Below the pieces are notes generated by a model. That model had not been told where the DNA came from. It saw nothing but the letters and a program-made list of their open reading frames with translations, and did no database searches. A stretch of 64,000 bases of DNA from Escherichia coli (GTDB lineage Bacteria; Pseudomonadota; Gammaproteobacteria; Enterobacterales; Enterobacteriaceae): the NCBI GenBank assembly GCA_025336685.1, contig GCA_025336685.1_4717.1. One strand, 5' to 3'. The position numbers and the translations under genes were made by a program. Each line of letters starts with the position of its first letter. Position 1 is the stretch's first letter. Positions 4,142-48,405 of the stretch are shown in pieces.

Positions 4142-5724
4142 ACCAAACAGCGATAAACATGGGTCTTATCGCCGGTGCTGGTAAAGATAAAGGCTATGTG
4201 GAAGAAGGGGGTACCGTACTCCACCAATATTCAATCGGTGGCCAGAACGTTGAAGAATTCATCAACTACGCCTCTAAGACGCTACCGGGGATTTATAAGA
4301 AAGGTGGTGGGATCGATATCTACCAGATTGCAACACGTCGTCAGCGTATACAAAACGCATGGGTACGTCGTATTCAATCCATGATGGAAAACGATTACTC
4401 GTCTTACGAGGAGTTCTGGAACGATCTTGATAAACGACTTGATAGCGGAGCATTTCCATCGGATGTAACCGGTCGTACGTTAACGCAGTATCTCGCCGAC
4501 ACACAGAAGTCTGCTGTTTACAGTGCGACAGCTGGTGATAATAAACAAACGATGGACGACCTTTTATTCGGAAGGGCCTCATACACCAACAAGGATGCTG
4601 ATGCCAACTTCAAAGTCTCGGCGGCTACCTCCGACGGTGGTACGTCAACACAGAGTCAGGGTACAACAGCCAATGTCGGTAATTCGACATCAGGGACAAC
4701 GCAGGCTGCAACAGCAGCATCGACGGCTGGAGGTGCGAACGTACAGAGCAAAGGGATCGGTCAAACAAATGCGGCCGAGGAAGCTACGTTTCTTGATCTG
4801 ATGGATGCTGAACTGGCTGACGGTGCTCAGTTTATCAGTTTTCGAGTCGATTCTGTCACCAGCGTAACCGAAACGTTTTCAAACAGCGCTTCAGAAAGTT
4901 CAATCGCACAGACGATGAATAGCCGCGCGCAAGCGAACATCGAACGTCGTTTCACCCTCTCCGGTGGTAATACAGGTTGGGCTGTACTAGACGAAGCCAT
5001 CAAAGCCGGTTCCGATCTCGTCAATGGTGCTATTTCCGGGATGGGTCTGGATGGTATTTTTGGTGCCTTCATGGGTTCCGGATTCGCTGACATTCCGAAA
5101 TTCTATTCTGGGTCGTCAGTAAGTCTACCGCGTGCCGATCTGATGATGGAATTGCGTTCCTGGAGTGGGGACCGCTGGTCGATCTTTACGAACCTCATGG
5201 TACCTCTTTTAGCTATCCTCGCAGGTGGCTTACCTCAGGCTACCGGTAAATCGTCCTACGGGATGCCGTTCATGTGTGAGTGTTATATTCCAGGTAAAGT
5301 CCAGATTAAAATGGGTCTTATCGATAACATCACTGTGACGCGTCATGTTGGAAACGTACCATCGACACGCGAACGATTACCGTTGGGCATCGATGTCAGC
5401 TTCAGCGTTTATGACCTATCGTCCATCGTCGCAATGCCGATCACAACGACAGCTGCATCGATCGCAAAATTAGATCCTCGCGGCTTCTTAAGTGATCTTC
5501 TTGCTGATGATACTCCGCTCAACAACTATCTTGCTGTATTATCGGCATTGACACTTACGGAACAAGTTTACATGATTCCTGATTTAAGTCGTCGCATGCA
5601 TAAAACCATGGCCGATATCGATAGTTTCTGGAGCAAAGGTAATTTTGCTAGCTGGTTGTCTGACACCATGCCAGGCAGGATAGCATCAGGGCTGTTATGG
5701 AAACGTACAGAACGACCGTTCTGA
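4105..5724 (+). CDS. Hypothetical protein, possibly structural (start uncertain; alternative ATG at 4159)
   Basis: Long ORF with Ser/Thr/Gly-rich low-complexity stretch; no motif recognised. Confidence 0.5.
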   Translation: MHVYWASFQTLVNQTAINMGLIAGAGKDKGYVEEGGTVLHQYSIGGQNVEEFINYASKTLPGIYKKGGGIDIYQIATRRQRIQNAWVRRIQSMMENDYSSYEEFWNDLDKRLDSGAFPSDVTGRTLTQYLADTQKSAVYSATAGDNKQTMDDLLFGRASYTNKDADANFKVSAATSDGGTSTQSQGTTANVGNSTSGTTQAATAASTAGGANVQSKGIGQTNAAEEATFLDLMDAELADGAQFISFRVDSVTSVTETFSNSASESSIAQTMNSRAQANIERRFTLSGGNTGWAVLDEAIKAGSDLVNGAISGMGLDGIFGAFMGSGFADIPKFYSGSSVSLPRADLMMELRSWSGDRWSIFTNLMVPLLAILAGGLPQATGKSSYGMPFMCECYIPGKVQIKMGLIDNITVTRHVGNVPSTRERLPLGIDVSFSVYDLSSIVAMPITTTAASIAKLDPRGFLSDLLADDTPLNNYLAVLSALTLTEQVYMIPDLSRRMHKTMADIDSFWSKGNFASWLSDTMPGRIASGLLWKRTERPF

Positions 5725-5740
5725 TATTCACTGCATAAAC

Positions 5741-5772
5741 CCCTCTCCCTTCCCTGATGGGTTGGGAGAGGG
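5741..5772. terminator. Family hairpin CCCTCTCCCTTCCC-TGAT-GGGTTGGGAGAGGG at a convergent junction
   Basis: 14-nt arms with a TT/TT mismatch; between 4105..5724 (+) and 5779..6846 (-). Confidence 0.55.
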
Positions 5773-8033: not shown

Positions 8034-8054
8034 TCATCATGAAGGTAATATAGT
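8034..8054 (+). promoter_or_regulatory. Conserved 21-mer CATCATGAAGGTAATATAGTC (candidate promoter), about 32 nt upstream of the 8087 start
   Basis: Identical 21-mer recurs at 35790..35810; contains a TATAGT (-10-like) hexamer with ATGACA 16 nt upstream at this site. Confidence 0.45.
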
Positions 8055-8086
8055 CCTGTTATTTTTTTCAATACGGAGAATGTAAA

Positions 8087-14537: not shown

Positions 14538-15980
14538 TCAGACTCGCGATATGTTACCGCGTACGCTTTCGTTTCCGGCGATGCTAAATAGCTCAAGTTC
14601 AGACGTTGAGGCAGGTCTAACCCTACGACATGGTACAAGACGTAACACCCTGCTTATCGGGGTCAGTCTGTAATTCACGTCCACCTTCAAGCTTTTCGTA
14701 ACCTGCGTAATCGCACTATGCACTTTGGTAACCGTTTTACCTTTCTTATCCTTTTCTGTTTCGAAAAGAACGTCGGTAATTTCGGTTACGACCAGACGCG
14801 GTGTGGATTCGCGGTTAGCGTCAAGCCATTCATCCAGTAACGTCTTTAAGAAGTTCAAGGAATCAATCGCACGCCAAGCAAGGTTAGGCGGATTGCATGC
14901 TTCCATTAAAATGGCTGTGTTCGATCCACCTAGCGGAAGATGCACGCTCTTACCGAGGCCTGTCGGACGCATCGTAAGATCGCACTCACCCTCAAGAATA
15001 TCGCGATGATGTTGACGATGATGAAGGTTATCCGTGTATGCGATATACACTGACTCCGTTGTCCCATGCTCTAATACCCGAGATGCATGCGTACGCATAA
15101 TCTCAATAGCATCATCCGGCTTGCTTAAATAGATAACACTGTACGCGCTATCGCTAATCCTTTTCCCTAACTCAAGACGTCCCTTGTTGTCTTTATCGGT
15201 GTTACCACCGAAATAGATGTAGCGACCATCTTTCGCACGCTCTTGCTGCTGATTGGTGGTAAAGTAGCAGCGCGAGAACGTAAAGAACGGACTTATTTCC
15301 GGTTCGGGACTCCAATACCCCTTAGCCGGAAGTTCGCGACGTATTTGGGTTCTTACAGCCCAGTCCTGGTTTTGTGATAGATATGTTCCACGCGTTGCCA
15401 ACATATCCGCACGTTCGTTACCAACATTGCCCTCATGTCCAGGAACGTAACGCAGCGAAATATCGATAGCGTCGCGCTTCGCATCCCTTATCGCACTATC
15501 GAGTTTCCGCCACCGTTCCGCATTCATTAACGGTTTATTGTCGGATTTAACCCAGTTGTTCTCTCGCCAGTTAGCAAGATGGTTGGTGGCACCTACAACA
15601 ACATATTGGCTGTCCGACAACAGCTGGATCCGTTTTGCCCCCTTTGCTTTTCCAAGTTCAATCGCACGTATTGCAGCATCCAACTCAGCCTGATTGTTCG
15701 TTACGTTGAAACCCAAAGCCTCTAACTCATCCACGTATTCCTTGGGTTCGACCAGCACAGCGTCTTTAGGAAAGTTGAGTTTAGGGTCAACATAACCGTA
15801 TTGTGTTGGTTTGGGCTTTCCACTTTTTGAAGGTTCCAAGGTGCCTTTTATTTCTTTCACCATATCGTAGGTGTAGCCATGCACGCCATAGCCACCATAC
15901 CCACTCGATGTTGGACGGGATCCTCCATCACAGTAGAAAACGGCACCAAGCTCAGTATTTCCTGCCATTGTAAACCTCAT
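14538..15980 (-). CDS. RNase H (RNase HI-like) domain protein with about 250 aa C-terminal domain of unknown function
   Basis: Catalytic-site pattern: FYCDGGS (Asp), NNQAELDA (Glu), LLSDSQYVV (Asp), VPGHEGNVGNERADMLA (His/Asp). Confidence 0.65.
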   Translation of the reverse strand: MRFTMAGNTELGAVFYCDGGSRPTSSGYGGYGVHGYTYDMVKEIKGTLEPSKSGKPKPTQYGYVDPKLNFPKDAVLVEPKEYVDELEALGFNVTNNQAELDAAIRAIELGKAKGAKRIQLLSDSQYVVVGATNHLANWRENNWVKSDNKPLMNAERWRKLDSAIRDAKRDAIDISLRYVPGHEGNVGNERADMLATRGTYLSQNQDWAVRTQIRRELPAKGYWSPEPEISPFFTFSRCYFTTNQQQERAKDGRYIYFGGNTDKDNKGRLELGKRISDSAYSVIYLSKPDDAIEIMRTHASRVLEHGTTESVYIAYTDNLHHRQHHRDILEGECDLTMRPTGLGKSVHLPLGGSNTAILMEACNPPNLAWRAIDSLNFLKTLLDEWLDANRESTPRLVVTEITDVLFETEKDKKGKTVTKVHSAITQVTKSLKVDVNYRLTPISRVLRLVPCRRVRPASTSELELFSIAGNESVRGNISRV

Positions 15981-18600: not shown

Positions 18601-18633
18601 CCCTCCTCCTTCCCATGTTGGGTTGGAGGAGGG
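18601..18633 (+). terminator. Hairpin CCCTCCTCCTTCCC-loop-GGGTTGGAGGAGGG, member of a recurring hairpin family
   Basis: 14-nt arms with a central TT/TT mismatch, immediately after the stop of 17968..18594. Confidence 0.55.
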
Positions 18634-21160: not shown

Positions 21161-21178
21161 CTAGGTAATATAGCCGTG
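21161..21178 (+). promoter_or_regulatory. Promoter-like motif CTAGGTAATATAGCCGTG in a divergent intergenic region
   Basis: Shares the AGGTAATATAG core with the 21-mers at 8034 and 35790; lies upstream of the plus-strand gene 21283..22104. Confidence 0.35.
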
Positions 21179-21282
21179 AAAAAAGTTGGATTAAGTTAAA
21201 TACCGCAACCTAACTAATTTTATAGGCCTACAGCCTAAACCAATCATCTTCGAAATCATCATCTACGAAACAGGAACCTATC

Positions 21283-31126: not shown

Positions 31127-31543
31127 TTATCTTCCTCGATTTTCTAGTTGAGACACAATACCATCAGCAACGTAATGCAACTGGACATTAAAATCCAACG
31201 ACGATACTGCGGAAATTGACCAGCAGGCATTTGAAGCCCAATACAACCCACCTACACCCAAAGAGACTTCCCACGTTAACTTCGTTATGACGTCTCTAGC
31301 TCGCTGTTCACTATATCGAAACGCGTTTTCCAACAATGTTTTTCCCGTTTGTGAACATAAAAAGCAAAGTTTCACATCTGTGCCGGTCTTTTCAAAATCA
31401 AACAATCGAAAATGGTCAACCAAAGAGGGGGTGGAGGCTAGGCATTGCAATGCGTCTTCCAATGCAAGATGGTCTAGCGTTTCTAAGTTTTTGCATGGCT
31501 GCTTTGGTGCGAGTGCGATTGATTTGTGGAATACAACATTCAT
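31127..31543 (-). CDS. Small protein, paralogue family A (3 of 3)
   Basis: LCFLCSQTGKTLLENAFRY ... TWEVS. Confidence 0.5.
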   Translation of the reverse strand: MNVVFHKSIALAPKQPCKNLETLDHLALEDALQCLASTPSLVDHFRLFDFEKTGTDVKLCFLCSQTGKTLLENAFRYSEQRARDVITKLTWEVSLGVGGLYWASNACWSISAVSSLDFNVQLHYVADGIVSQLENRGR

Positions 31544-31591
31544 GATTAGTTCCTCGTAGTGTTAAGTGGGGACAGATGTGTCCCCGGATAG

Positions 31592-32062
31592 TTAGATTAC
31601 ATCCCAAGCCGTGTTAGGTATGGGTTGATTACGATCGATGTAATACATCACGCTTTCTTTAAGCTTGGTTAACGCGTCAGCAACGATGTTCTCCACGGTT
31701 ATCACCTTTTCCATGTTGCCCATTGTATCCTGCCATGTAAACCAATCATTGATGTTATCGATGTATAGGGACTCATCGTCATCCGTCATGACCTGTATAT
31801 TTTCACGGCGATCGCGGGTTGTATACAACGGTGTTTGTACATTCGTTCTAACACGCGTCCAAAGCTTCTCTAGAAAGTTCGACGGTTGATTATTCGTAGC
31901 GATAATAAGCTCACTACGTACTGAATGTTCTCCTCGCTTTTCAATAGCAAATAAACCATCGTAAGTGATGTTCATCAATTTACGGAGGTCATCGTTGCTG
32001 TTCCAGTCTTTTACAACAGCAGGAAGTCGGCTATTGTAACCTTCAGGCAATCTCTCAATCAT
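31592..32062 (-). CDS. Hypothetical protein (156 aa)
   Basis: ORF in the same co-directional block. Confidence 0.45.
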   Translation of the reverse strand: MIERLPEGYNSRLPAVVKDWNSNDDLRKLMNITYDGLFAIEKRGEHSVRSELIIATNNQPSNFLEKLWTRVRTNVQTPLYTTRDRRENIQVMTDDDESLYIDNINDWFTWQDTMGNMEKVITVENIVADALTKLKESVMYYIDRNQPIPNTAWDVI

Positions 32063-32492
32063 CGGTTTCTGCTCCTATATCACGTTTGAGGTCGGCCATC
32101 AGTTTTTCATAATGGTCTTTTATCACGTTCGCAATAACGAATTGCACTTTTCTCACTAGCTGCTCATCGGCATCACTGAATGTAAAAAGCTCACACACAT
32201 CAATCGGTTGTGATGCACCACCAATACGGTAGGTTTTAGTCGATGCGCGCTCAGCAATGACGGGGAGCGGTTCCACAGCGTTCAGTGCGGTACAGATTTC
32301 CGTAACGAGTTCTTGAATGCTGCTTCTGCCTTCGATAATAACAGAACAGCGATAGACATCCACCTCGTTAAGCCGTTCAACGACATCCGCCCTGATTTTG
32401 AAATTTCCAATAAGCGAGCTCACCAAAGTGCTATGCCAGTTGTTCACCACCCCGACCAACAGCGGATGATTCTCAAGATCTCTTCTATTCAT
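32055..32492 (-). CDS. Hypothetical protein (145 aa)
   Basis: ORF overlapping the downstream start by 8 nt (coupled). Confidence 0.45.
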   Translation of the reverse strand: MNRRDLENHPLLVGVVNNWHSTLVSSLIGNFKIRADVVERLNEVDVYRCSVIIEGRSSIQELVTEICTALNAVEPLPVIAERASTKTYRIGGASQPIDVCELFTFSDADEQLVRKVQFVIANVIKDHYEKLMADLKRDIGAETDD

Positions 32493-32571
32493 CAGTTAGC
32501 TCCTAAATAGCGCTACAACTAATTTTTAATGGAAGGGAATATGTTTCCCTTCCTTGGGTTAGTTTAATGCG

Positions 32572-32847
32572 TCATGCAGCTTTACAGCTCGCGTAACATA
32601 CCAGTGTTCCGTTGTTGATTGCCTCAACAACATCCTGGGTCAGTTTGGTCGCAAGTTTATTATCCGCACTCGGTACGTAATAACCTTCTCCTGTTTCAGT
32701 GACTAGGCGATAACGTACTAATCCTACCGCACGCTCGACGCGTAGCACCTTTTCAAGTTTGTGTTTGATGATCTTCGTCAGGCTGACGGCGTCTGATGCG
32801 TAGATTGCTTTATAAACCTTGTTCTTTGCTGTCGGTTTCATCAACAT
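32572..32847 (-). CDS. Small hypothetical protein (start moved to the internal ATG to avoid overlap with 32870..33703)
   Basis: The track ORF 32572..32910 would overlap the upstream gene by 40 nt; the internal start gives MLMKPTAKNK... Confidence 0.4.
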   Translation of the reverse strand: MLMKPTAKNKVYKAIYASDAVSLTKIIKHKLEKVLRVERAVGLVRYRLVTETGEGYYVPSADNKLATKLTQDVVEAINNGTLVCYASCKAA

Positions 32848-32869
32848 GGTTTCTGTTTTCCTTGGTTTA

Positions 32870-33703
32870 TCACGATGCCAGGTCAGCGATATCCCAATGG
32901 GTATAACCAACCTCGCGGATGAGCTCTGCTGTCTCTTCGAACAGTGGGGTAGGGCTAATAACCGGTAACCATTTCCCCTCTCGGGTTATCTTGACTTCGA
33001 CGGTCTGTAAGTTCGTGTTCCAACGAACATCATAAACCAGCGCATAGCCAAGAGGATGAACAAGTCCATCTTGGTTATATGTCTCCAAAAGACCTCGTAC
33101 GTCTTCTTCGTAGGATGTTTTCGACAAGACAGCACGTACTCGTCGCAGCCTCTTCGTGATAACCTTTCCCAGCTCGATGCTCTCCCAGCCTGTCATGACG
33201 CAAGGATTACCATCGCGACGAAGAGACCGAGAAATATAAATAGAATCGTTCGTGGTAAGGTGTACCCACCCAAGATCGCAGTATGCGACAGGTCGTGGTG
33301 ATTCTCCTTCGATAACCGTCGTTTCATCCAACATCGCCACAACACCGCAGTCTGCGAACTCCGGCGATACTTCATCCAGCATCTTAATACGGCTTTCTTG
33401 GCCGGTATGGTCAGGATCGACATGCGCGTAGTAGTAATTAGGCTCTATCGCACGGTATTGCGCAATGCTTCTACGGAAGTCGGTATCCTGCATTCCCAGC
33501 GGGTGGTGATACGCAAGCTGTTGCTTTATACCATCCTTGATTACCAACAGAAGATCTTCGCGATCTGATGCGGGATCCTCCACCACGATGTATTTAACAA
33601 TCGCTTTCAGGTTCTTAACGATGCTATCTGGAAGTTTCTCAATATCCCGCGCATCATAGACACGGTTAACTACAGTGTTTACAAGGTGTTTTGATAAGCT
33701 CAT
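32870..33703 (-). CDS. Paralogue family B protein (1 of 3), function unknown
   Basis: Shares an HPLG(F/Y)-containing C-terminal domain and a (Y/W)(H/Y)PLGMQD N-terminal motif with 33781..34638. Confidence 0.55.
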   Translation of the reverse strand: MSLSKHLVNTVVNRVYDARDIEKLPDSIVKNLKAIVKYIVVEDPASDREDLLLVIKDGIKQQLAYHHPLGMQDTDFRRSIAQYRAIEPNYYYAHVDPDHTGQESRIKMLDEVSPEFADCGVVAMLDETTVIEGESPRPVAYCDLGWVHLTTNDSIYISRSLRRDGNPCVMTGWESIELGKVITKRLRRVRAVLSKTSYEEDVRGLLETYNQDGLVHPLGYALVYDVRWNTNLQTVEVKITREGKWLPVISPTPLFEETAELIREVGYTHWDIADLAS

Positions 33704-33780
33704 CGATGATCTCTCTTTGTTATTTCTACCGATAACGCGGCATAAGGGGACAATGATGTCCCCGTGTTAGAATCAACTAC

Positions 33781-34638
33781 TTACGGCTTCAAATCCGAAA
33801 TATCCCATCGTACGTAACCTGTACGCTCAATTTCATGAACCAGTTCCTCGGTTTGTTTCTCAACACCGACAACGGGAACCCAATTCAACTGTTGGGTGCG
33901 TTTACCGATGTTAACCTCGACACGCTGCAGATCATCATTCCAACAAACCCCAGCCGGTTTCACAAAACCCAGCGGGTGGATAAAACTAAGATCGTCGCTG
34001 AAATCACGAAGAACGCGCAACGTATCGATGGTTGAAGGGTTATCACAGCGAACAAGGCGTACGCTTTGCAATTTATCGTATACCGCTCGAGCTACACGTT
34101 CATCGCGCCAGTTCGTCATGAATACCGGTTTTATACCACGTTTTAGAAGATGATCGATCTGGATTGCGATGTTATCGTGAACATACATGCAACCCTGTTC
34201 GGTTTCGGTGTTGCAGCCACCGTCCTCTAACCGGTTCGGATACGTCTGATGGTCTACCGTCACAGCAACTCCTTCAGCGAGCGTGGTCAACGGAAGAAGA
34301 CGTTGTAGACTCGTTATTGGATAATCAGGCGACATCCCAGGACGGATATGCGCCATCGTACCCCAACTGTCAGGGAATCCGTGTCGGTATGTGTATTGCC
34401 TGAATACCTCATCCTGCATCCCTAACGGATACCATCGTGCAAGCCGCTGTTGCTCGCCATCCTGAATAACAAAAAGCATTTCTTTGCGATTCGGCCATCG
34501 ATGATGTTCCACGGTCAAGCCATCAACAACCGGTCTTAAGTTGACTTTGATATGCTCGGGAAGTTTATCCACCTCTTCGCGACGGTAAAATCGATCGACG
34601 ACGATGATATCAACCTTCCCGTGATTGAACCAATTCAT
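33781..34638 (-). CDS. Paralogue family B protein (2 of 3), function unknown (start moved to ATG 34638, MNWFNHG)
   Basis: WYPLGMQDEVF and IHPLGFVKPAGVCWNDDLQRVEVNI align with the other two family members. Confidence 0.55.
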   Translation of the reverse strand: MNWFNHGKVDIIVVDRFYRREEVDKLPEHIKVNLRPVVDGLTVEHHRWPNRKEMLFVIQDGEQQRLARWYPLGMQDEVFRQYTYRHGFPDSWGTMAHIRPGMSPDYPITSLQRLLPLTTLAEGVAVTVDHQTYPNRLEDGGCNTETEQGCMYVHDNIAIQIDHLLKRGIKPVFMTNWRDERVARAVYDKLQSVRLVRCDNPSTIDTLRVLRDFSDDLSFIHPLGFVKPAGVCWNDDLQRVEVNIGKRTQQLNWVPVVGVEKQTEELVHEIERTGYVRWDISDLKP

Positions 34639-34926
34639 GTTAACTCCCTCTGTGGTGCGAAAACAAAACATCTAATTGCTCCCGTTGTTCTTTTAAGTAT
34701 GCGGGAAGCTGGTCTTCCCGTACCGTTCCGATTTCCAACGTGATATACCAGCGTTGTTCGGAAGCCTGCCATTGAAAACTGCTCTGTAACCGCAGGATGC
34801 TAGGATCGTGTACCTTGCTTGCACTGTAACGGTTGAACCAATTCAGGTATCCTGCTTTCCCTTCCTCATCAGCAACGTAACGCTGCACGCTGTTCTTCCC
34901 TTTGTTTTCGTATCCTGTTGCGTGTA

Positions 34927-35709
34927 TCATGCGAACGTTTCTCCTGTAACGTGTTGTGGGCGTTGTAGCATGGTAGCATCCCATTGTACGATCCGGCTCC
35001 GGCTTACCCGCATCATGACGGATTCATCGTCAAGCCCCGGTTGCGCAACCGGCAACCAACGTTCGTTAAGCACCTTCGCTTCAACCCGTTTCTTGCGTGG
35101 GTTGTAACGCACCTCGCTAACCCAAGCGAATCCAAGCGGATGCACAACCCGTGGATAATACGTGCGAAGCAATTGATGCATCCGATCCAGTACCTCCAAG
35201 CTCGCATCGGCCATGTATGGTTTCACCATGGTAAGCTTTTTGGTGTAATACGTCCCAACGGTATGGTTCGCCCACCCGGGAAGCACGTGATGGAATCCTA
35301 CCTGTAATTGTGTATTGCCGTTCACCTTCAGCCAACCGTATTGTCCAGCCGCACGTCCCTCGTCAGTATCGATCCATGTAAGTATATCGATGAACGCACG
35401 ATCGGTGATCTCGATGCGTTCCACCCGTTCATCCAACGCACCACGTACCACGAATCCGCTCGCGCTCACCCGCGCAGGATGCTGGCTGCGATGCGCGTAC
35501 CAATTCTTGTTGCCGGTAAGCAGGTAAGGGTACGTGTGAGCACCCCGCCAAACAACCGTTCCGTTCGTCCCATCAACACAGTGTACATACATCCCATCTT
35601 GACCGTTGTTGTAGCATGCTACCTTCACGCATTCGTTTTGAACATCGCTCGGTAACGCCAGGTATTCACCTTCGGTAAACATGGTATCAAAAATGATTTC
35701 TTCGTTCAT
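34927..35709 (-). CDS. Paralogue family B protein (3 of 3), divergent N-terminus
   Basis: C-terminal VHPLGFAWVSEVRYNPRKKRVEAKV aligns with VHPLGYALVYDVRWNTNLQTVEVKI of 32870..33703. Confidence 0.55.
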   Translation of the reverse strand: MNEEIIFDTMFTEGEYLALPSDVQNECVKVACYNNGQDGMYVHCVDGTNGTVVWRGAHTYPYLLTGNKNWYAHRSQHPARVSASGFVVRGALDERVERIEITDRAFIDILTWIDTDEGRAAGQYGWLKVNGNTQLQVGFHHVLPGWANHTVGTYYTKKLTMVKPYMADASLEVLDRMHQLLRTYYPRVVHPLGFAWVSEVRYNPRKKRVEAKVLNERWLPVAQPGLDDESVMMRVSRSRIVQWDATMLQRPQHVTGETFA

Positions 35710-35789
35710 CTAAAAAGATCCTCTGTTTTTCACGTTAATTAAACAACGTATTGATTTCTATTTAACGCAATACGAACATCGTACGTATG

Positions 35790-35810
35790 CATCATGAAGG
35801 TAATATAGTC
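35790..35810 (+). promoter_or_regulatory. Conserved 21-mer CATCATGAAGGTAATATAGTC (second copy)
   Basis: Exact 21/21 identity with 8034..8054; sits at the left edge of the AT-rich region, pointing into it. Confidence 0.4.
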
Positions 35811-36415
35811 GTGAAAGGATTTGCATTAAAGCAAGGGTAATTGTTTTGTTTTAAGAAGGGATGGATGATAGCGGTATCTGAAAGGAGAAGGATTTTAAGG
35901 AAGGTCTTGATTGAAGTAAGTGAAGAGGATGATTATTTCGGTTTAAGTAAGTAGGTAAGTTATCGTGTTATTGTTTTTTGTCTTAATGGTTTTATCGTTT
36001 TATCTGTTGTTTATATAAATCAAATTAAATTATAAAGTCAGTTAAGATGTTGGTTAACAACGTTCAACTCAAAAAACCATTTGTGATACTCTTCTTCACG
36101 TTGTTCATCAGAGTATCTCGTCTATACTCATTGCATTCGTATACGACATAACCGTTATACGCTAACGCTACGCTTATAGCTTGATAACTCTAAGGATAAA
36201 AACATAAACTCGCTTCGCTCGTTTAGTTTTTCTTTTTCTTAGAGTTATCCTGTTGCTCGTCTCTAAAGGACTTCGCTCCTCCCCCGTCCCCCGAAGGGGC
36301 CGAGGTCGTGGAAATTTTACTTTCCAAATACATTTACAACATCTGTAAACTTTTACTCCAGGTACTTAATCTTATCATTAGAAATTATAAAGAGAAGAAT
36401 AAACACAAACATAAA

Positions 36416-36447
36416 CCTTCCTCCAACCCAACAGGGAAGGAGGAAGG
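36416..36447 (-). terminator. Family hairpin CCTTCCTCCAACCC-AACA-GGGAAGGAGGAAGG after the stop of 36461..37354
   Basis: 14-nt arms with one mismatch; on the minus strand it is followed by a T-rich run. Confidence 0.55.
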
Positions 36448-36460
36448 GATACAATGGTTA

Positions 36461-37354
36461 TTATTCGGAAACGTTGTAACCGAACACCGCTTTACCGTAG
36501 GTGTGAGTACCGTCAGCTAATGACAGCACCAGCACGTGGTTGTACGTAGCGTTAACACCCTTGTCGGTAGACTCGGTGGTAGCACCGTTGTAGACGAAAG
36601 TAGCCGTTTGCAGATTGGCTTTCAGCTCGGTGATGATCTCATCACCCACACCCGTCTGCTCTTTGATCAGCGTGGTCAGGTTACCCGCCAGGCTTTCATC
36701 GATCTTGGTTTCATCACTGGTAATAGCTTGTAAACCTGCGGTGTAGGTGCTGAAGTCTAACGGATAGGTTAACAGACGCGCTGAGGTCTTGGTACCATCG
36801 CCTTCATCAACGTAGGTTAACTTACCCAGGTTGGTAACCTTGATGATGTTAGCCAGATCCAGCGTGGTGTTATAAACTTTAACTTCAACGGAACCGTACC
36901 AAGCCAGCGAATCTTCTTTGGCCTGCAGGGTGATCGTCTGGATACCATGATCGTCGAAGGTAACCGGCGTAGCTAACGTATCGGCTTTGATGTCTTTCGT
37001 TTTATCTAAGAACTTCTCACCGGAAGGCGTGATCATACCGTAGCGTTGAGCTACAAGGTCAACCACGTCACCAATAGTGGTGTTAGCATTAACGTTAACG
37101 CGTACGGCGATCTTCTGGAACCACTTAGCCAGATCCAGACGATGATAGGTAACATCGCGGTCATTGAAGTAAGGTGTACCTTCACCAGGGCTAAGCGTTA
37201 AAGTTGCATCTGGAGCAGAATCGCTTTTGGATTTAAGAACGTATTTAAGGTCGGTGGGTTTGAAGTTGGCACCAGTGTCGGCGTTGAGTGTGTTAATCTC
37301 ATCAACGATAAGTTGCCAAGGTGTTTTTAAAGTAAGTGATACTTGAGCTGTCAT
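36461..37354 (-). CDS. Putative virion structural protein, paralogue family C (YxDR ... AW(T/Y)GSV motifs)
   Basis: Shares motifs with 37498..38040, 48415..49320, 50237..51088 and 51099..52046; codon usage biased towards preferred codons. Confidence 0.55.
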   Translation of the reverse strand: MTAQVSLTLKTPWQLIVDEINTLNADTGANFKPTDLKYVLKSKSDSAPDATLTLSPGEGTPYFNDRDVTYHRLDLAKWFQKIAVRVNVNANTTIGDVVDLVAQRYGMITPSGEKFLDKTKDIKADTLATPVTFDDHGIQTITLQAKEDSLAWYGSVEVKVYNTTLDLANIIKVTNLGKLTYVDEGDGTKTSARLLTYPLDFSTYTAGLQAITSDETKIDESLAGNLTTLIKEQTGVGDEIITELKANLQTATFVYNGATTESTDKGVNATYNHVLVLSLADGTHTYGKAVFGYNVSE

Positions 37355-38040: not shown

Positions 38041-38239
38041 TAAACACATAGAGCAATAGTATGGGTTTTGTACAGCTCGGCTATTGCTCTTCTACAATTT
38101 GGTTGTAACAATCTGCGTGGTTGCACGCTTATCTTTCTCATTGAACGCTTCGTATGAAGCGTGGTGTTGAAAGGGTTGTGGATCTCCTCAAGCGGCCAGG
38201 GACCCAGACCAACCTGAATAAACACAAACACATGTTAAG

Positions 38240-38272
38240 CCCCTCCTCAGCCCTTATCGGGTTGGGGAGGGG
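38240..38272. terminator. Family hairpin CCCCTCCTCAGCCC-loop-GGGTTGGGGAGGGG (imperfect) at a convergent junction
   Basis: Between 37498..38040 (+) and 38336..38971 (-); two mismatches in the 14-nt arms. Confidence 0.45.
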
Positions 38273-38335
38273 TCTTATACGTCTTTATACGTTTCGTTCG
38301 TTCTGGTGTGTTTTAGAACGGTTTACAGCAGGGTT

Positions 38336-48373: not shown

Positions 48374-48405
48374 CCCTCCTCCTTCCCTTACGGGTTGGAG
48401 GAGGG
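48374..48405. terminator. Family hairpin CCCTCCTCCTTCCC-TTAC-GGGTTGGAGGAGGG at a convergent junction
   Basis: Arms identical to the 18601 copy; between 47083..48363 (+) and 48415..49320 (-). Confidence 0.55.

What the first reader, a model, noticed from the sequence alone, without database searches (positions are those of the whole stretch)
35710..36460. 750-bp AT-rich non-coding island with reiterated purine-rich words, inverted repeats and a promoter-like 21-mer
This is the largest gene-free stretch in an otherwise tightly packed window. It contains the exact 21-mer CATCATGAAGGTAATATAGTC (also found at 8034), a run of AAGG/TAAGT-type reiterations at about 35860-35980, an 11-bp inverted repeat flanking a 40-bp spacer at about 36186-36250, and a GC-rich hairpin near 36270-36300. 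That combination fits a replication origin, a packaging site, or a locus for a non-coding RNA.
Basis: seen in the sequence. Interest (0 to 1): 0.6.

Follow-up and report, generated by a model that had tools for sequence, protein, structure and literature searches.

The report
Ultraconserved structured element in jumbo phage
The largest gene-free gap in this Goslar-like nucleus-forming jumbo phage holds an unannotated, hairpin-rich block of about 285 bases that is conserved far better than the neighbouring genes, most likely a new non-coding RNA, and the repeated 21-mer beside it is an early-gene promoter that fires away from the gap, not into it.

Summary
The window is a relative of the E. coli chimallivirus Goslar (about 94% identical). 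The gap 35710-36460 is real, non-coding and the largest in the window. It lies between two minus-strand genes: the late virion-fibre gene gp022 and the early gene gp021.

It is composite. Read on the minus strand it contains:
- the gp022 terminator hairpin (36447-36416);
- an AT-rich linker;
- a core of about 285 nt (36356-36071) with 11 helices, ending in a U-tract;
- a hypervariable, unstructured, G-depleted spacer with GATAA words (36070-35871);
- the gp021 5'UTR.

Across 13 related genomes the core is 97% identical. gp022 is 81% identical overall and 66% at four-fold degenerate sites. The core matches no Rfam family and is single-copy. It occurs only in Goslar-like phages and is absent from a more distant relative.

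Wobble pairs, two compensatory pairs, a cUUCGg tetraloop and the 3' U-tract all favour an RNA on the minus strand. Expression is untested.

The spacer is the most strand-skewed stretch of the whole Goslar genome and remains unexplained. An origin or packaging role is not supported by GC skew but is not excluded.

Its interpretation is partly right (a ncRNA locus), but the promoter direction and the strand are wrong.

The parts
34927..35709 (-). gp021 homologue, 260 aa, with no Pfam domain. It is the first gene of an early operon of small hypothetical genes.
   Evidence: ORF and translation. Goslar annotation. No Pfam domain. Goslar gp021 RNA rises in ChmA knockdown (log2FC +1.2), which marks it as early and virion-RNAP-dependent.
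35710..35789 (-). gp021 5'UTR, with the ribosome-binding site AGAGGA at 35719-35724. The transcription start is inferred near 35788-35793 and is not mapped.
   Evidence: Sequence. Alignment of 13 genomes. The start site is an inference from the position of the motif.
35790..35816 (-). Early (virion RNA polymerase) promoter.
   Evidence: Motif family in Goslar, all copies in one orientation and each upstream of a minus-strand gene. Those genes are early and the genes on the other side are late. The distant relative L011 has the same motif co-oriented with its genes.
35817..35870 (-). Conserved block upstream of the promoter (CCATCCCTTCTTAAAA...CAAATCC).
   Evidence: Alignments. Mean pairwise identity 0.79. 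It is partly shared with the Goslar gp159 promoter.
35871..36070 (.). Hypervariable spacer. On the minus strand it is G-depleted (5-7% G), unstructured, and carries GATAA words (AAGATAAC in relatives) all in one orientation.
   Evidence: Composition. Most extreme strand skew in the genome and the only TTATCT cluster. Word counts and spacing. Folding z-score -1.4. Identity 0.48 with many indels.
36071..36076 (-). U6 tract at the 3' edge of the conserved core. Its length varies from U5 to U9 among relatives.
36077..36356 (-). Ultraconserved structured core. Helices, given as 5' arm/3' arm in window coordinates:
- 36350-36344/36338-36332
- 36326-36321/36314-36309
- 36305-36296/36291-36282 (cUUCGg loop)
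- 36281-36277/36270-36266
- 36257-36255/36180-36178
- 36231-36217/36213-36198 (GCGAAGC tip with tandem G.A)
- 36177-36170/36155-36148
- 36168-36166/36161-36159
- 36147-36135/36131-36120 (covarying tip)
- 36117-36110/36092-36085 (invariant 17-nt loop)
   Evidence: Identity 0.97 against 0.66 at four-fold degenerate sites of gp022. Longest invariant run in 9 kb. Folding z-scores -4.6 to -6.5. Consensus structure and pair counts. Sense against antisense. No Rfam match.
36345..36356 (.). 12-nt palindrome GTAAAAGTTTAC at the 5' edge of the core. It is a candidate middle/late promoter element or a protein-binding site.
   Evidence: Invariant in 13 genomes. Exact copies in Goslar lie before chmA and gp069, and GTAAGTGTTTAC lies before gp022/gp023 and the major head gene. 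Six exact matches were found against about 0.1 expected.
36357..36415 (-). AT-rich linker. It contains the U-rich tail of the gp022 terminator and a small conserved island, TAAGATTA (36367-36374).
   Evidence: Identity 0.75.
36416..36447 (-). gp022 terminator hairpin CCTTCCTCC-N14-GGAGGAAGG. It belongs to a recurrent hairpin family. On the minus strand it is followed by UUUAUGUUUGUGUUUAUU.
   Evidence: Goslar annotates the equivalent hairpins elsewhere as terminators. The simple terminator scan does not call it because the loop exceeds 8 nt.
36461..37354 (-). gp022 homologue, a DUF7941 virion fibre protein. It is a late gene.
   Evidence: PF25613. About 580 copies per virion. Goslar gp022 RNA falls by log2FC -4 to -5 in ChmA knockdown.

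Best explanation
The gap is a composite boundary between a late transcription unit (gp022) and an early one (gp021 onwards). Embedded in it is an extra, selectively constrained element.

Shown:
- The hairpin at 36416-36447 is the gp022 terminator type.
- The 285-nt core (36071-36356) evolves about ten times more slowly than synonymous sites of the adjacent gene.
- The core folds into about 11 helices.

Inferred: the core acts as RNA made from the minus strand, the same direction as both flanking genes. I consider it most likely a discrete non-coding RNA of about 250-285 nt.
- It would start at or just downstream of the palindrome GTAAAAGTTTAC, an element that also precedes chmA, the major head gene and gp022/gp023.
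- It would end at the U-tract at 36076-36071.
- Less likely, it is a read-through 3' extension of the gp022 mRNA.

Its stable capped hairpins (cUUCGg, GNA triloops, tandem G.A) and its invariant loops suggest an RNA that is bound by protein or is nuclease-resistant, rather than a simple antisense regulator. Its target is unknown.

The G-depleted GATAA-word spacer between the core and the early promoter is a separate, fast-evolving feature. I take it as a protein-binding or insulating array of unknown partner.
For: Identity of the phage and genes.

Promoter direction:
- The motif occurs about 14 times in Goslar, all in one orientation and each upstream of a minus-strand gene.
- All 13 such genes keep or raise expression when the phage nucleus is blocked (log2FC +0.5 to +1.3).
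- The genes on the other side fall 4-8 log2 units.

Constraint on the core:
- There are 299- and 63-nt invariant runs in four genomes, against at most 80 nt elsewhere in 9 kb.
- Mean pairwise identity is 0.970, against 0.806 for gp022, 0.660 at four-fold sites and 0.80 for the adjacent terminator and linker.
- The core haplotypes co-segregate with the flank haplotypes. This argues for long co-divergence under constraint, not a recent sweep.

Structure:
- Folding z-scores are -4.6 to -6.5.
- Of 82 pairs, 99.8% of cells are paired.
- Two pairs show compensatory changes (AU/GC/GU and CG/UA).
- Three pairs change through wobble only.

Strand:
- The consensus fold energy is -80 kcal/mol for sense and -62 for antisense.
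- There are 4.3 G.U pairs per sequence, so the mirror structure pairs only 94.6% of cells.
- A U5-9 tract lies at the 3' edge.

Not coding:
- No small ORF of the gap was ever called as a gene.
- The only ATG ORF (36 aa) has no ribosome-binding site and covers under half of the conserved block.

Specificity:
- The core is single-copy and found only in Goslar-like contigs.
- It is absent from E. coli genomes and plasmids.
- It matches no Rfam family.

Precedent: short structured intergenic RNAs are documented in phiKZ and 201phi2-1 (PMC10914365; PMC11512511).
Against: - No expression data were available for the gap. The published Goslar RNA-seq table covers annotated genes only.
- Covariation is thin. 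73 of 82 pairs never vary, so structure rests mainly on thermodynamics.
- Loops are as invariant as stems. This would also fit a DNA-level function or dense protein binding.
- The U-tract is separated from the last helix by 8 nt, so it is not a textbook intrinsic terminator. The simple scan calls no terminator there.
- The 5' element is a palindrome. It carries no strand information and could be an operator rather than a promoter.
- A relative with 52%-identical gp022 lacks the core and spacer entirely. The element is therefore not required by chimalliviruses in general.
- A second intergenic block (38061-38300) is almost as conserved and as structured. Conserved structured 3' regions may thus be a general feature of late genes here rather than a special RNA gene.
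Confidence: 0.55

Rival explanations
1. Cis-acting 3' region of the gp022 late transcript. The core plus the U-tract, and the extra hairpin modules in relatives, would form a long structured 3'UTR and terminator stack. Its role would be to stabilise the abundant fibre mRNA and/or to insulate the downstream early operon from late read-through. It would have no independent trans function.
For: - The core lies directly downstream of, and co-oriented with, gp022.
- Several successive hairpin and U-rich modules follow one another in relatives.
- The other abundant DUF7941 gene, gp023, is also followed by a conserved, structured block of about 250 nt.
- The locus is a late-to-early boundary.
Against: - Other late-to-early boundaries in Goslar need only about 100-340 nt.
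- Terminators and stability elements do not normally require 97% sequence invariance in loops and junctions over 280 nt.
- A competent terminator hairpin already sits 13 nt after the stop codon.
- Assemblies from two sequencing runs stop exactly there. This is weak evidence, because the nature of the runs is unknown.
Confidence: 0.2
2. DNA-level element: a replication origin or packaging-initiation site. The GATAA-word array would be bound by a phage protein. The AT-rich spacer would serve as the unwinding or cleavage region, and the hairpin-rich core would act as extruded DNA structure.
For: - The locus is unique in the genome. It has the most extreme strand-composition skew and the only TTATCT cluster in 237 kb.
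- G+C is 30%.
- The words lie in one orientation, 3-11 per genome.
- d(GCGNAGC)-type mini-hairpins are known from ssDNA-phage origins (own knowledge).
- Two recent reviews of nucleus-forming and jumbo phages do not mention a replication origin.
Against: - There is no GC- or AT-skew inflection at the locus, in the window or in the whole Goslar genome.
- The words are only 6-8 nt, irregularly spaced and turn over rapidly. The window keeps just three degenerate copies.
- There are no tandem iterons.
- Compensatory and wobble changes and a cUUCGg loop point to RNA rather than duplex DNA.
- The whole element is absent at this locus from a related phage.
- The terminase gene is about 175 kb away.
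Confidence: 0.15
3. One reading: the 21-mer is a rightward (+ strand) promoter that drives a purine-rich non-coding transcript through the gap.
For: - The 8035 copy lies 33 nt upstream of a + strand ATG.
- The + strand of the spacer is rich in Shine-Dalgarno-like AAGG/GGAG words.
Against: - All copies of the motif precede minus-strand early genes.
- Only 5 of about 14 copies have any + strand gene to the right, and those genes (gp005, gp160, gp199, gp224) are late. They are not expressed when only the virion polymerase is active.
- The core folds worse on the + strand, where its G.U pairs become mismatches.
Confidence: 0.04
4. The gap encodes one or more small proteins, for example the 36-aa ORF 36333-36223 on the minus strand.
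For: An ATG ORF of 36 codons lies inside the invariant block.
Against: - It has no ribosome-binding site, and its ATG is buried in a helix.
- It explains under 40% of the conserved block.
- The three changes inside it include S>P and Q>H.
- It was never predicted as a gene in more than 20 genomes or in about 15 billion proteins.
- The other ORFs start in non-conserved sequence.
Confidence: 0.03

Closest known systems
Short intergenic and 5'UTR-derived structured RNAs of phiKZ and 201phi2-1 (ONT-cappable-seq; PMC10914365, PMC11512511)
   Same: These are non-coding, structured elements encoded by chimalliviruses in intergenic space and bounded by a phage promoter and a hairpin terminator. One of them (sRNA005, upstream of phiKZ gp182) is conserved across genera. 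Their function is unknown.
   Different: Those RNAs are 70-250 nt with mapped ends and lie in Pseudomonas phages, mostly upstream of a tail gene. This one is about 285 nt and lies downstream of a fibre gene. It has no detectable sequence relatives outside Goslar-like phages, and its expression is unproven.
phiKZ-type early (virion RNA polymerase) promoters
   Same: The 21-mer belongs to a strongly conserved AT-rich motif of about 25 nt with a TATATTAC-like core. It is repeated about 14 times, lies 30-160 nt upstream of early genes including the nuclear-shell gene, and is active without the phage nucleus.
   Different: The Goslar consensus (TTTCACGRCTAYATTACCT) was derived here and has not been mapped by 5'-end sequencing. 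I could not compare it base by base with the phiKZ logo, because figures are not held.
Iteron-plus-AT-rich phage origins (lambda ori, P1 oriR, SPP1 oriL) and T4 oriF/oriG (promoter plus unwinding element); own knowledge
   Same: It is a unique, AT-rich, strand-skewed region with reiterated short words next to a promoter.
   Different: The words are 6-8 nt, irregularly spaced and evolutionarily unstable. The promoter fires away from the AT-rich part. No initiator gene is evident, and there is no skew switch.
P1-type pac site with clustered hexamers; own knowledge
   Same: Several copies of one hexamer lie in a single locus of the genome.
   Different: There are no two flanking clusters, no link to terminase genes, and no terminus data. 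The copy number varies from 3 to 11.
phi29 pRNA and other phage structural or regulatory RNAs (T4 species 1/2 RNAs); own knowledge
   Same: It would be a phage-encoded, highly structured, protein-free gene product of 120-300 nt located near morphogenesis genes.
   Different: There is no sequence or Rfam similarity and no evidence that the RNA associates with virions or the packaging motor.

Membership tests
Any Rfam 15 RNA family | Covariance-model score at or above the family's gathering threshold | tested here: not met
   There were 0 hits over the whole window at the gathering threshold. At E<=10 on 35600-36600 there was only a spurious ES239 match (16 bits against 62 required), and it overlaps the terminator and the end of gp022.
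Functional structured ncRNA (generic criteria) | Nucleotide conservation well above neutral sites of neighbouring genes | tested here: met
   Identity is 0.970 against 0.660 at four-fold sites of gp022, in 13 genomes.
Functional structured ncRNA (generic criteria) | Folding energy significantly below shuffled controls | tested here: met
   The z-score is -4.6 for the core on the sense strand. For 395 nt it is -6.5 (sense) and -5.7 (antisense).
Functional structured ncRNA (generic criteria) | Compensatory base-pair changes supporting the helices | tested here: inconclusive
   Two of 82 pairs are compensatory, three change by wobble only, one is broken in two sequences, and 73 are invariant. The covariation score exceeds all 500 shuffles, but the sequences are closely related.
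Functional structured ncRNA (generic criteria) | Own promoter and terminator | tested here: inconclusive
   A recurrent palindrome, GTAAAAGTTTAC, lies at the 5' edge, and a U5-9 tract lies at the 3' edge. Neither has been validated, and the U-tract is 8 nt from the last helix.
Functional structured ncRNA (generic criteria) | Detectable transcript of defined length | not testable with these tools
   The published Goslar RNA-seq is tabulated per annotated gene only.
Chimallivirus early (vRNAP) promoter | Conserved AT-rich motif repeated upstream of early genes, co-oriented with them | tested here: met
   About 14 copies occur in Goslar, all in one orientation and each 30-160 nt upstream of a minus-strand gene. 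L011 has the same arrangement.
Chimallivirus early (vRNAP) promoter | The downstream gene is expressed when only the virion polymerase is active | tested here: met
   In ChmA knockdown, gp021 and 12 other motif-preceded genes show log2FC +0.5 to +1.3, while the upstream neighbours are strongly down (data from bioRxiv 10.1101/2023.09.20.558163).
Chimallivirus early (vRNAP) promoter | Mapped transcription start a few bases downstream of the motif | not testable with these tools
   No 5'-end data were available for this locus.
Iteron-type replication origin | Several direct repeats of 12 bp or more at regular spacing | tested here: not met
   Tandem Repeats Finder found none. There are only 6-8-nt GATAA words with spacings of 6 to 88 nt.
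Iteron-type replication origin | Adjacent AT-rich unwinding region | tested here: met
   The spacer has 30% G+C and is essentially unstructured.
Iteron-type replication origin | Inflection of cumulative GC skew at the site | tested here: not met
   There is no inflection at window 35.7-36.5 kb or at Goslar 15 kb. The skew follows the gene strand.
Intrinsic terminator (gp022 hairpin 36416-36447) | G+C-rich stem followed directly by a U-rich run on the transcribed strand, downstream of a gene | tested here: inconclusive
   The 9+3-bp stem begins 13 nt after the stop codon and is followed by UUUAUGUUUGUGUUU. The same hairpin type follows four other genes. The consensus scan does not call it because the loop region exceeds its limit.

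The most novel reading that the evidence does not exclude
The core is a trans-acting RNA specific to Goslar-type nucleus-forming phages that works as part of a ribonucleoprotein. Examples would be roles in nuclear-shell mRNA traffic, virion or fibre assembly, or counter-defence. Alternatively, the core together with the genome-unique GATAA-word spacer forms the first identified cis-element for replication or packaging of a chimallivirus genome.
Probability: 0.15. Interest if true: 0.8.

Novelty: new member of a known kind. Interest (0 to 1): 0.5.

Why it matters
Goslar is a main laboratory model for phages that build a nucleus-like compartment. Its record annotates nothing in this gap of about 850 bp.

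An element conserved ten-fold better than synonymous sites is under strong selection, yet it has no known function or family. If it is an RNA, it would be one of very few conserved non-coding genes in this phage family.

It is also directly testable. Time-course RNA-seq already exists, and RNA-targeting knock-down tools (dCas13d, antisense oligomers) work on these phages.

The work also yields practical annotation. It gives a consensus and orientation for the Goslar early promoter, a candidate middle/late element, and a recurrent terminator hairpin.

The spacer is the most compositionally skewed site of the genome and remains an open question.

Tried and rejected
- Rfam at gathering and at permissive thresholds found nothing.
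- tRNA and tmRNA scan found none.
- The sigma-70 promoter and terminator scan was no better than shuffles, and host polymerase is not used by these phages anyway.
- Similarity searches of the gap and of the core against phage, plasmid and complete E. coli collections returned only Goslar itself.
- One exact-pattern scan of GTDB genomes returned nothing.
- Pairwise identity with Goslar alone proved uninformative. Other perfect runs of 300-400 nt exist, so deeper sampling was needed.
- I looked for the core as a paralogue elsewhere in Goslar and found only the self-hit.
- I tested whether the invariant 17-nt loop is complementary to a phage mRNA. The only 11-nt match has the wrong polarity.
- I hoped that sequencing-run assemblies would reveal transcript ends. 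Two contigs stop at the base of the gp022 terminator hairpin, but I cannot tell whether the runs are RNA or DNA. A third contig breaks at a palindrome, so this is weak evidence.
- I first read the motif GTAAAAGTTTAC as an oriented promoter. It is a palindrome and gives no strand information.
- One literature search was wasted on loose terms, and one search call failed on term length.
- No covariance model was built. The sequences are too similar for a model to reach beyond BLAST, and no public collection can be searched with it.
Full report
**What the window is**

The stretch 35500-36700 matches only Escherichia phage vB_EcoM_Goslar (Goslarvirus, a nucleus-forming jumbo phage of the Chimalliviridae), at about 92% identity. 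Across the window, 92% aligns to Goslar at 94% identity. The gap corresponds to Goslar 14972-15825, where the record annotates nothing.

Both flanking genes are on the minus strand.
- gp022 (36461-37354) is a DUF7941 protein (PF25613). A 2026 preprint reports it at about 580 copies per virion, forming filaments.
- gp021 (34927-35709) is a hypothetical protein with no Pfam domain.

**Checking the observation**

The gap is 751 nt and is the largest in the window. The 21-mer occurs exactly twice, at 8035 and 35790, with none expected by chance. The inverted repeat (36183-36194/36238-36249) and the G+C-rich hairpin (36282-36305) are present.

The 'reiterated words' are not regular repeats, since Tandem Repeats Finder finds nothing. 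The composition, however, is extreme, with 5% C on the + strand over 35812-36060. This is the lowest-C 200-nt window here, and its Goslar counterpart is the lowest of the whole Goslar genome.

**The 21-mer is an early promoter that points left**

I assembled the whole Goslar genome from annotated pieces and searched it for the motif. It has about 14 copies with the consensus AGGTAATRTAGYCGTGAAA. All copies lie on the record's + strand, although nearly all genes are on the - strand.

Every copy lies 30-160 nt to the right of the start of a minus-strand gene. These include the nuclear-shell gene chmA (gp246). Only five copies have a + strand gene on the right.

Read on the minus strand, the motif is 5'-TTTCACGRCTAYATTACCT-3'.

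The supplementary RNA-seq table of bioRxiv 10.1101/2023.09.20.558163 settles the direction.
- When ChmA is knocked down, infection arrests at the vesicle stage and the viral transcriptional profile matches early infection.
- In that state the 13 genes to the left of the motif keep or raise expression (log2FC +0.5 to +1.3; gp021 +1.2).
- The genes on the other side collapse: gp022 by -4 to -5, and gp005, gp041, gp076, gp160, gp199, gp213 and gp224 similarly.

The 21-mer is therefore part of the early promoter of gp021, and the gap is a late-to-early boundary. The copies at 8035 and 21161 are the promoters of the gp200 and gp004 homologues.

**Anatomy from comparison**

Goslar-like phages turned out to be common in public assemblies. 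gp022 homologues range from 97% down to 52% identity. I retrieved the locus from 19 further genomes.

Read on the minus strand, every genome whose gp022 is at least 73% identical at the nucleotide level has the same order:
1. gp022 stop codon;
2. terminator hairpin with a U-rich tail;
3. AT-rich linker;
4. an almost invariant core;
5. a U5-9 tract;
6. optional extra hairpin modules, present in Goslar and deleted in this window;
7. a hypervariable spacer;
8. a conserved block upstream of the promoter;
9. the early promoter;
10. the 5'UTR;
11. gp021.

The relative with 52%-identical gp022 (L011) goes directly from terminator to early promoter to the next gene in 374 nt. It has no core and no spacer.

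**The core**

In four genomes the longest all-identical runs in 9 kb are 299 and 63 nt, both inside 36078-36448. The next longest run is 80 nt.

Mean pairwise identity in 13 genomes:

| Segment | Identity |
|---|---|
| Core (283 columns) | 0.970 |
| gp022, all sites | 0.806 |
| gp022, four-fold degenerate sites | 0.660 |
| Terminator plus linker | 0.803 |

The two main core haplotypes travel with the two flank haplotypes, with some recombinants. The low divergence therefore reflects constraint rather than a recent sweep. This last step is inference.

The core folds strongly, with z-scores of -4.6 to -6.5. RNAalifold on 11 distinct sequences gives 11 helices. Counting the 82 helix pairs:
- 99.8% of cells are paired;
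- two pairs show compensatory changes (AU/GC/GU and CG/UA at the tip of helix 10);
- three pairs change only through wobble;
- one pair is broken in two sequences, where the change creates a GCGAAGC mini-hairpin instead;
- 73 pairs never vary.

Covariation support is thus real but thin.

Strand evidence favours the minus strand.
- Consensus fold energy is -80 kcal/mol for sense and -62 for antisense.
- There are 4.3 G.U pairs per sequence, so the mirror structure pairs only 94.6% of cells.
- There is a cUUCGg tetraloop.
- A length-variable U-tract lies at the 3' edge.

Other properties:
- The core matches no Rfam family.
- It is single-copy.
- It occurs only in Goslar-like contigs.
- It has no relatives in E. 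coli genomes or plasmids.
- Small ORFs in the gap were never called as genes in about 15 billion predictions.

**A possible promoter for the core**

The 5' edge of the core is the palindrome GTAAAAGTTTAC (36345-36356), which is invariant in all genomes. Exact copies in Goslar lie upstream of chmA and of the HNH gene gp069. The variant GTAAGTGTTTAC lies between the divergent late genes gp022 and gp023 and upstream of the major head gene. In total there are six exact matches to GTAA[AG][AT]GTTTAC against about 0.1 expected, all intergenic.

In the poorly conserved gp022/gp023 promoter region, this palindrome and a TATGG-plus-hairpin element are the conserved islands. TATGG recalls the phiKZ late TATG element, which I cite from my own knowledge.

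I read the palindrome as a candidate middle/late promoter element or regulator site. Being palindromic, it gives no strand information.

**The spacer**

On the minus strand it has 5-7% G, is unstructured (z = -1.4), and differs in length and sequence even between close relatives (identity 0.48).

The word AGATAA occurs 40 times in nine spacers against 2.4 expected. Copies always lie in one orientation, 3-11 per genome, with irregular spacing. This window keeps only three degenerate GATAA copies. In Goslar this is the only TTATCT cluster of the genome, with six in 300 nt against a next best of two.

Cumulative GC skew shows no inflection here.

I cannot explain this feature. A protein-binding array is my best guess, and an origin or pac function is a minority possibility. 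Two recent reviews of nucleus-forming and jumbo phages do not mention a replication origin. One mentions non-coding RNA only in passing, and the other not at all.

**Comparison with the known**

The nearest analogues are the intergenic and 5'UTR-derived structured RNAs mapped in phiKZ and 201phi2-1, whose functions are also unknown.

The present element is a new family with no homologues outside its clade. It is larger than those RNAs, lies in a different context, and has no expression evidence.

The promoter belongs to the phiKZ-type early class by behaviour and architecture.

**Verdict**

The best reading is an unannotated, strongly constrained, structured RNA element on the minus strand (confidence 0.55). 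Rivals:
- a cis-acting 3'UTR/insulator (0.2);
- a DNA-level origin or pac site (0.15);
- a small protein (0.03).

Noticed in passing
window 38061-38300: There is a second conserved, structured intergenic block between the convergent genes gp023 (DUF7941, + strand) and gp024 (endolysin, - strand). Mean pairwise identity is 0.93-0.97, while the flanking coding sequence is 0.55-0.85. The folding z-score is -6.3 on the + strand and -5.4 on the - strand. It may be a second RNA element or a long 3'UTR.
   Followed up: partly
window 5740-5772, 18601-18633, 36416-36447, 38240-38272, 48374-48405: A recurrent hairpin family, CC(C/T)TCCTCC-(TT/AA)CCC-N4-GGG(TT/AA)-GGAGGA(G/A)GG, follows gene ends. The loop orientation differs between copies, and an AATAAACA(C)AAACA / U-rich flank lies on one side. 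These are probably (bidirectional) terminators of the phage polymerase.
   Followed up: partly
window 31138-34677: The block of small early genes downstream of gp021 is not homologous to Goslar gp014-gp020. Only patchy 79% matches are found. L002 and L004 also differ here, so this is a hypervariable accessory-gene cassette next to the conserved non-coding element.
   Followed up: no
L002 about 5640-5690 and L019 about 4480-4560 (equivalent to window 35800): Two relatives carry a 43-100-nt insertion inside the early promoter. It duplicates the promoter half-site around a perfect palindrome (TTCATGATGCATGCATCATGAA). This resembles the promoter-plus-stem-loop cassettes thought to mediate shuffling in T4-type phages.
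   Followed up: no
between window 36060 and 36066 (Goslar 15340-15425): The window, L002 and L020 lack hairpin modules of about 85-100 nt that most relatives carry after the U-tract. These are AACGTTTTGT-GAAGA-ACAAAACGTT and ACATGTGTTAC...GTAAACACATGT. In L019 the loop of the first hairpin is inverted (CTTCA), as expected from hairpin-mediated inversion.
   Followed up: partly
proteins P0002, P0010, P0018, P0023, P0045, P0083, P0090: Goslar-like contigs of about 240 kb sit in NCBI isolate assemblies labelled Shigella flexneri, Shigella sonnei, Salmonella enterica and E. coli. This suggests a wide enterobacterial host range or carriage of these lytic jumbo phages in sequenced cultures.
   Followed up: no
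Goslar NC_048170 173087-173098, 81200-81211, 176758-176769, 45746-45757, 16758-16769: The palindrome GTAA(A/G)(A/T)GTTTAC recurs only in intergenic DNA. It lies before chmA (upstream of its early promoter), the HNH gene gp069, the major head gene and gp022/gp023. One copy (176758) has no co-oriented gene downstream.
   Followed up: partly
Goslar NC_048170 82470-83288 (outside the window): A second unannotated gap of 819 nt follows the NUMOD1/HNH endonuclease gene gp069, next to the split DNA polymerase gene. It was not examined.
   Followed up: no
L032 and L033 (Logan SRR32224759, SRR32224762): Contigs from two runs that carry the exact Goslar gp022 both end 14-16 nt after its stop codon, at the base of the terminator hairpin. 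If these are RNA-seq runs, this marks the end of the mRNA. I could not determine the run type.
   Followed up: partly
window 8035-8055 and 21161-21181: The other copies of the early-promoter motif lie in divergent intergenic regions. By analogy with Goslar gp200 and gp004 (early) against gp199 and gp005 (late), they drive the leftward genes, not the + strand genes that start 33 and about 100 nt to their right.
   Followed up: yes
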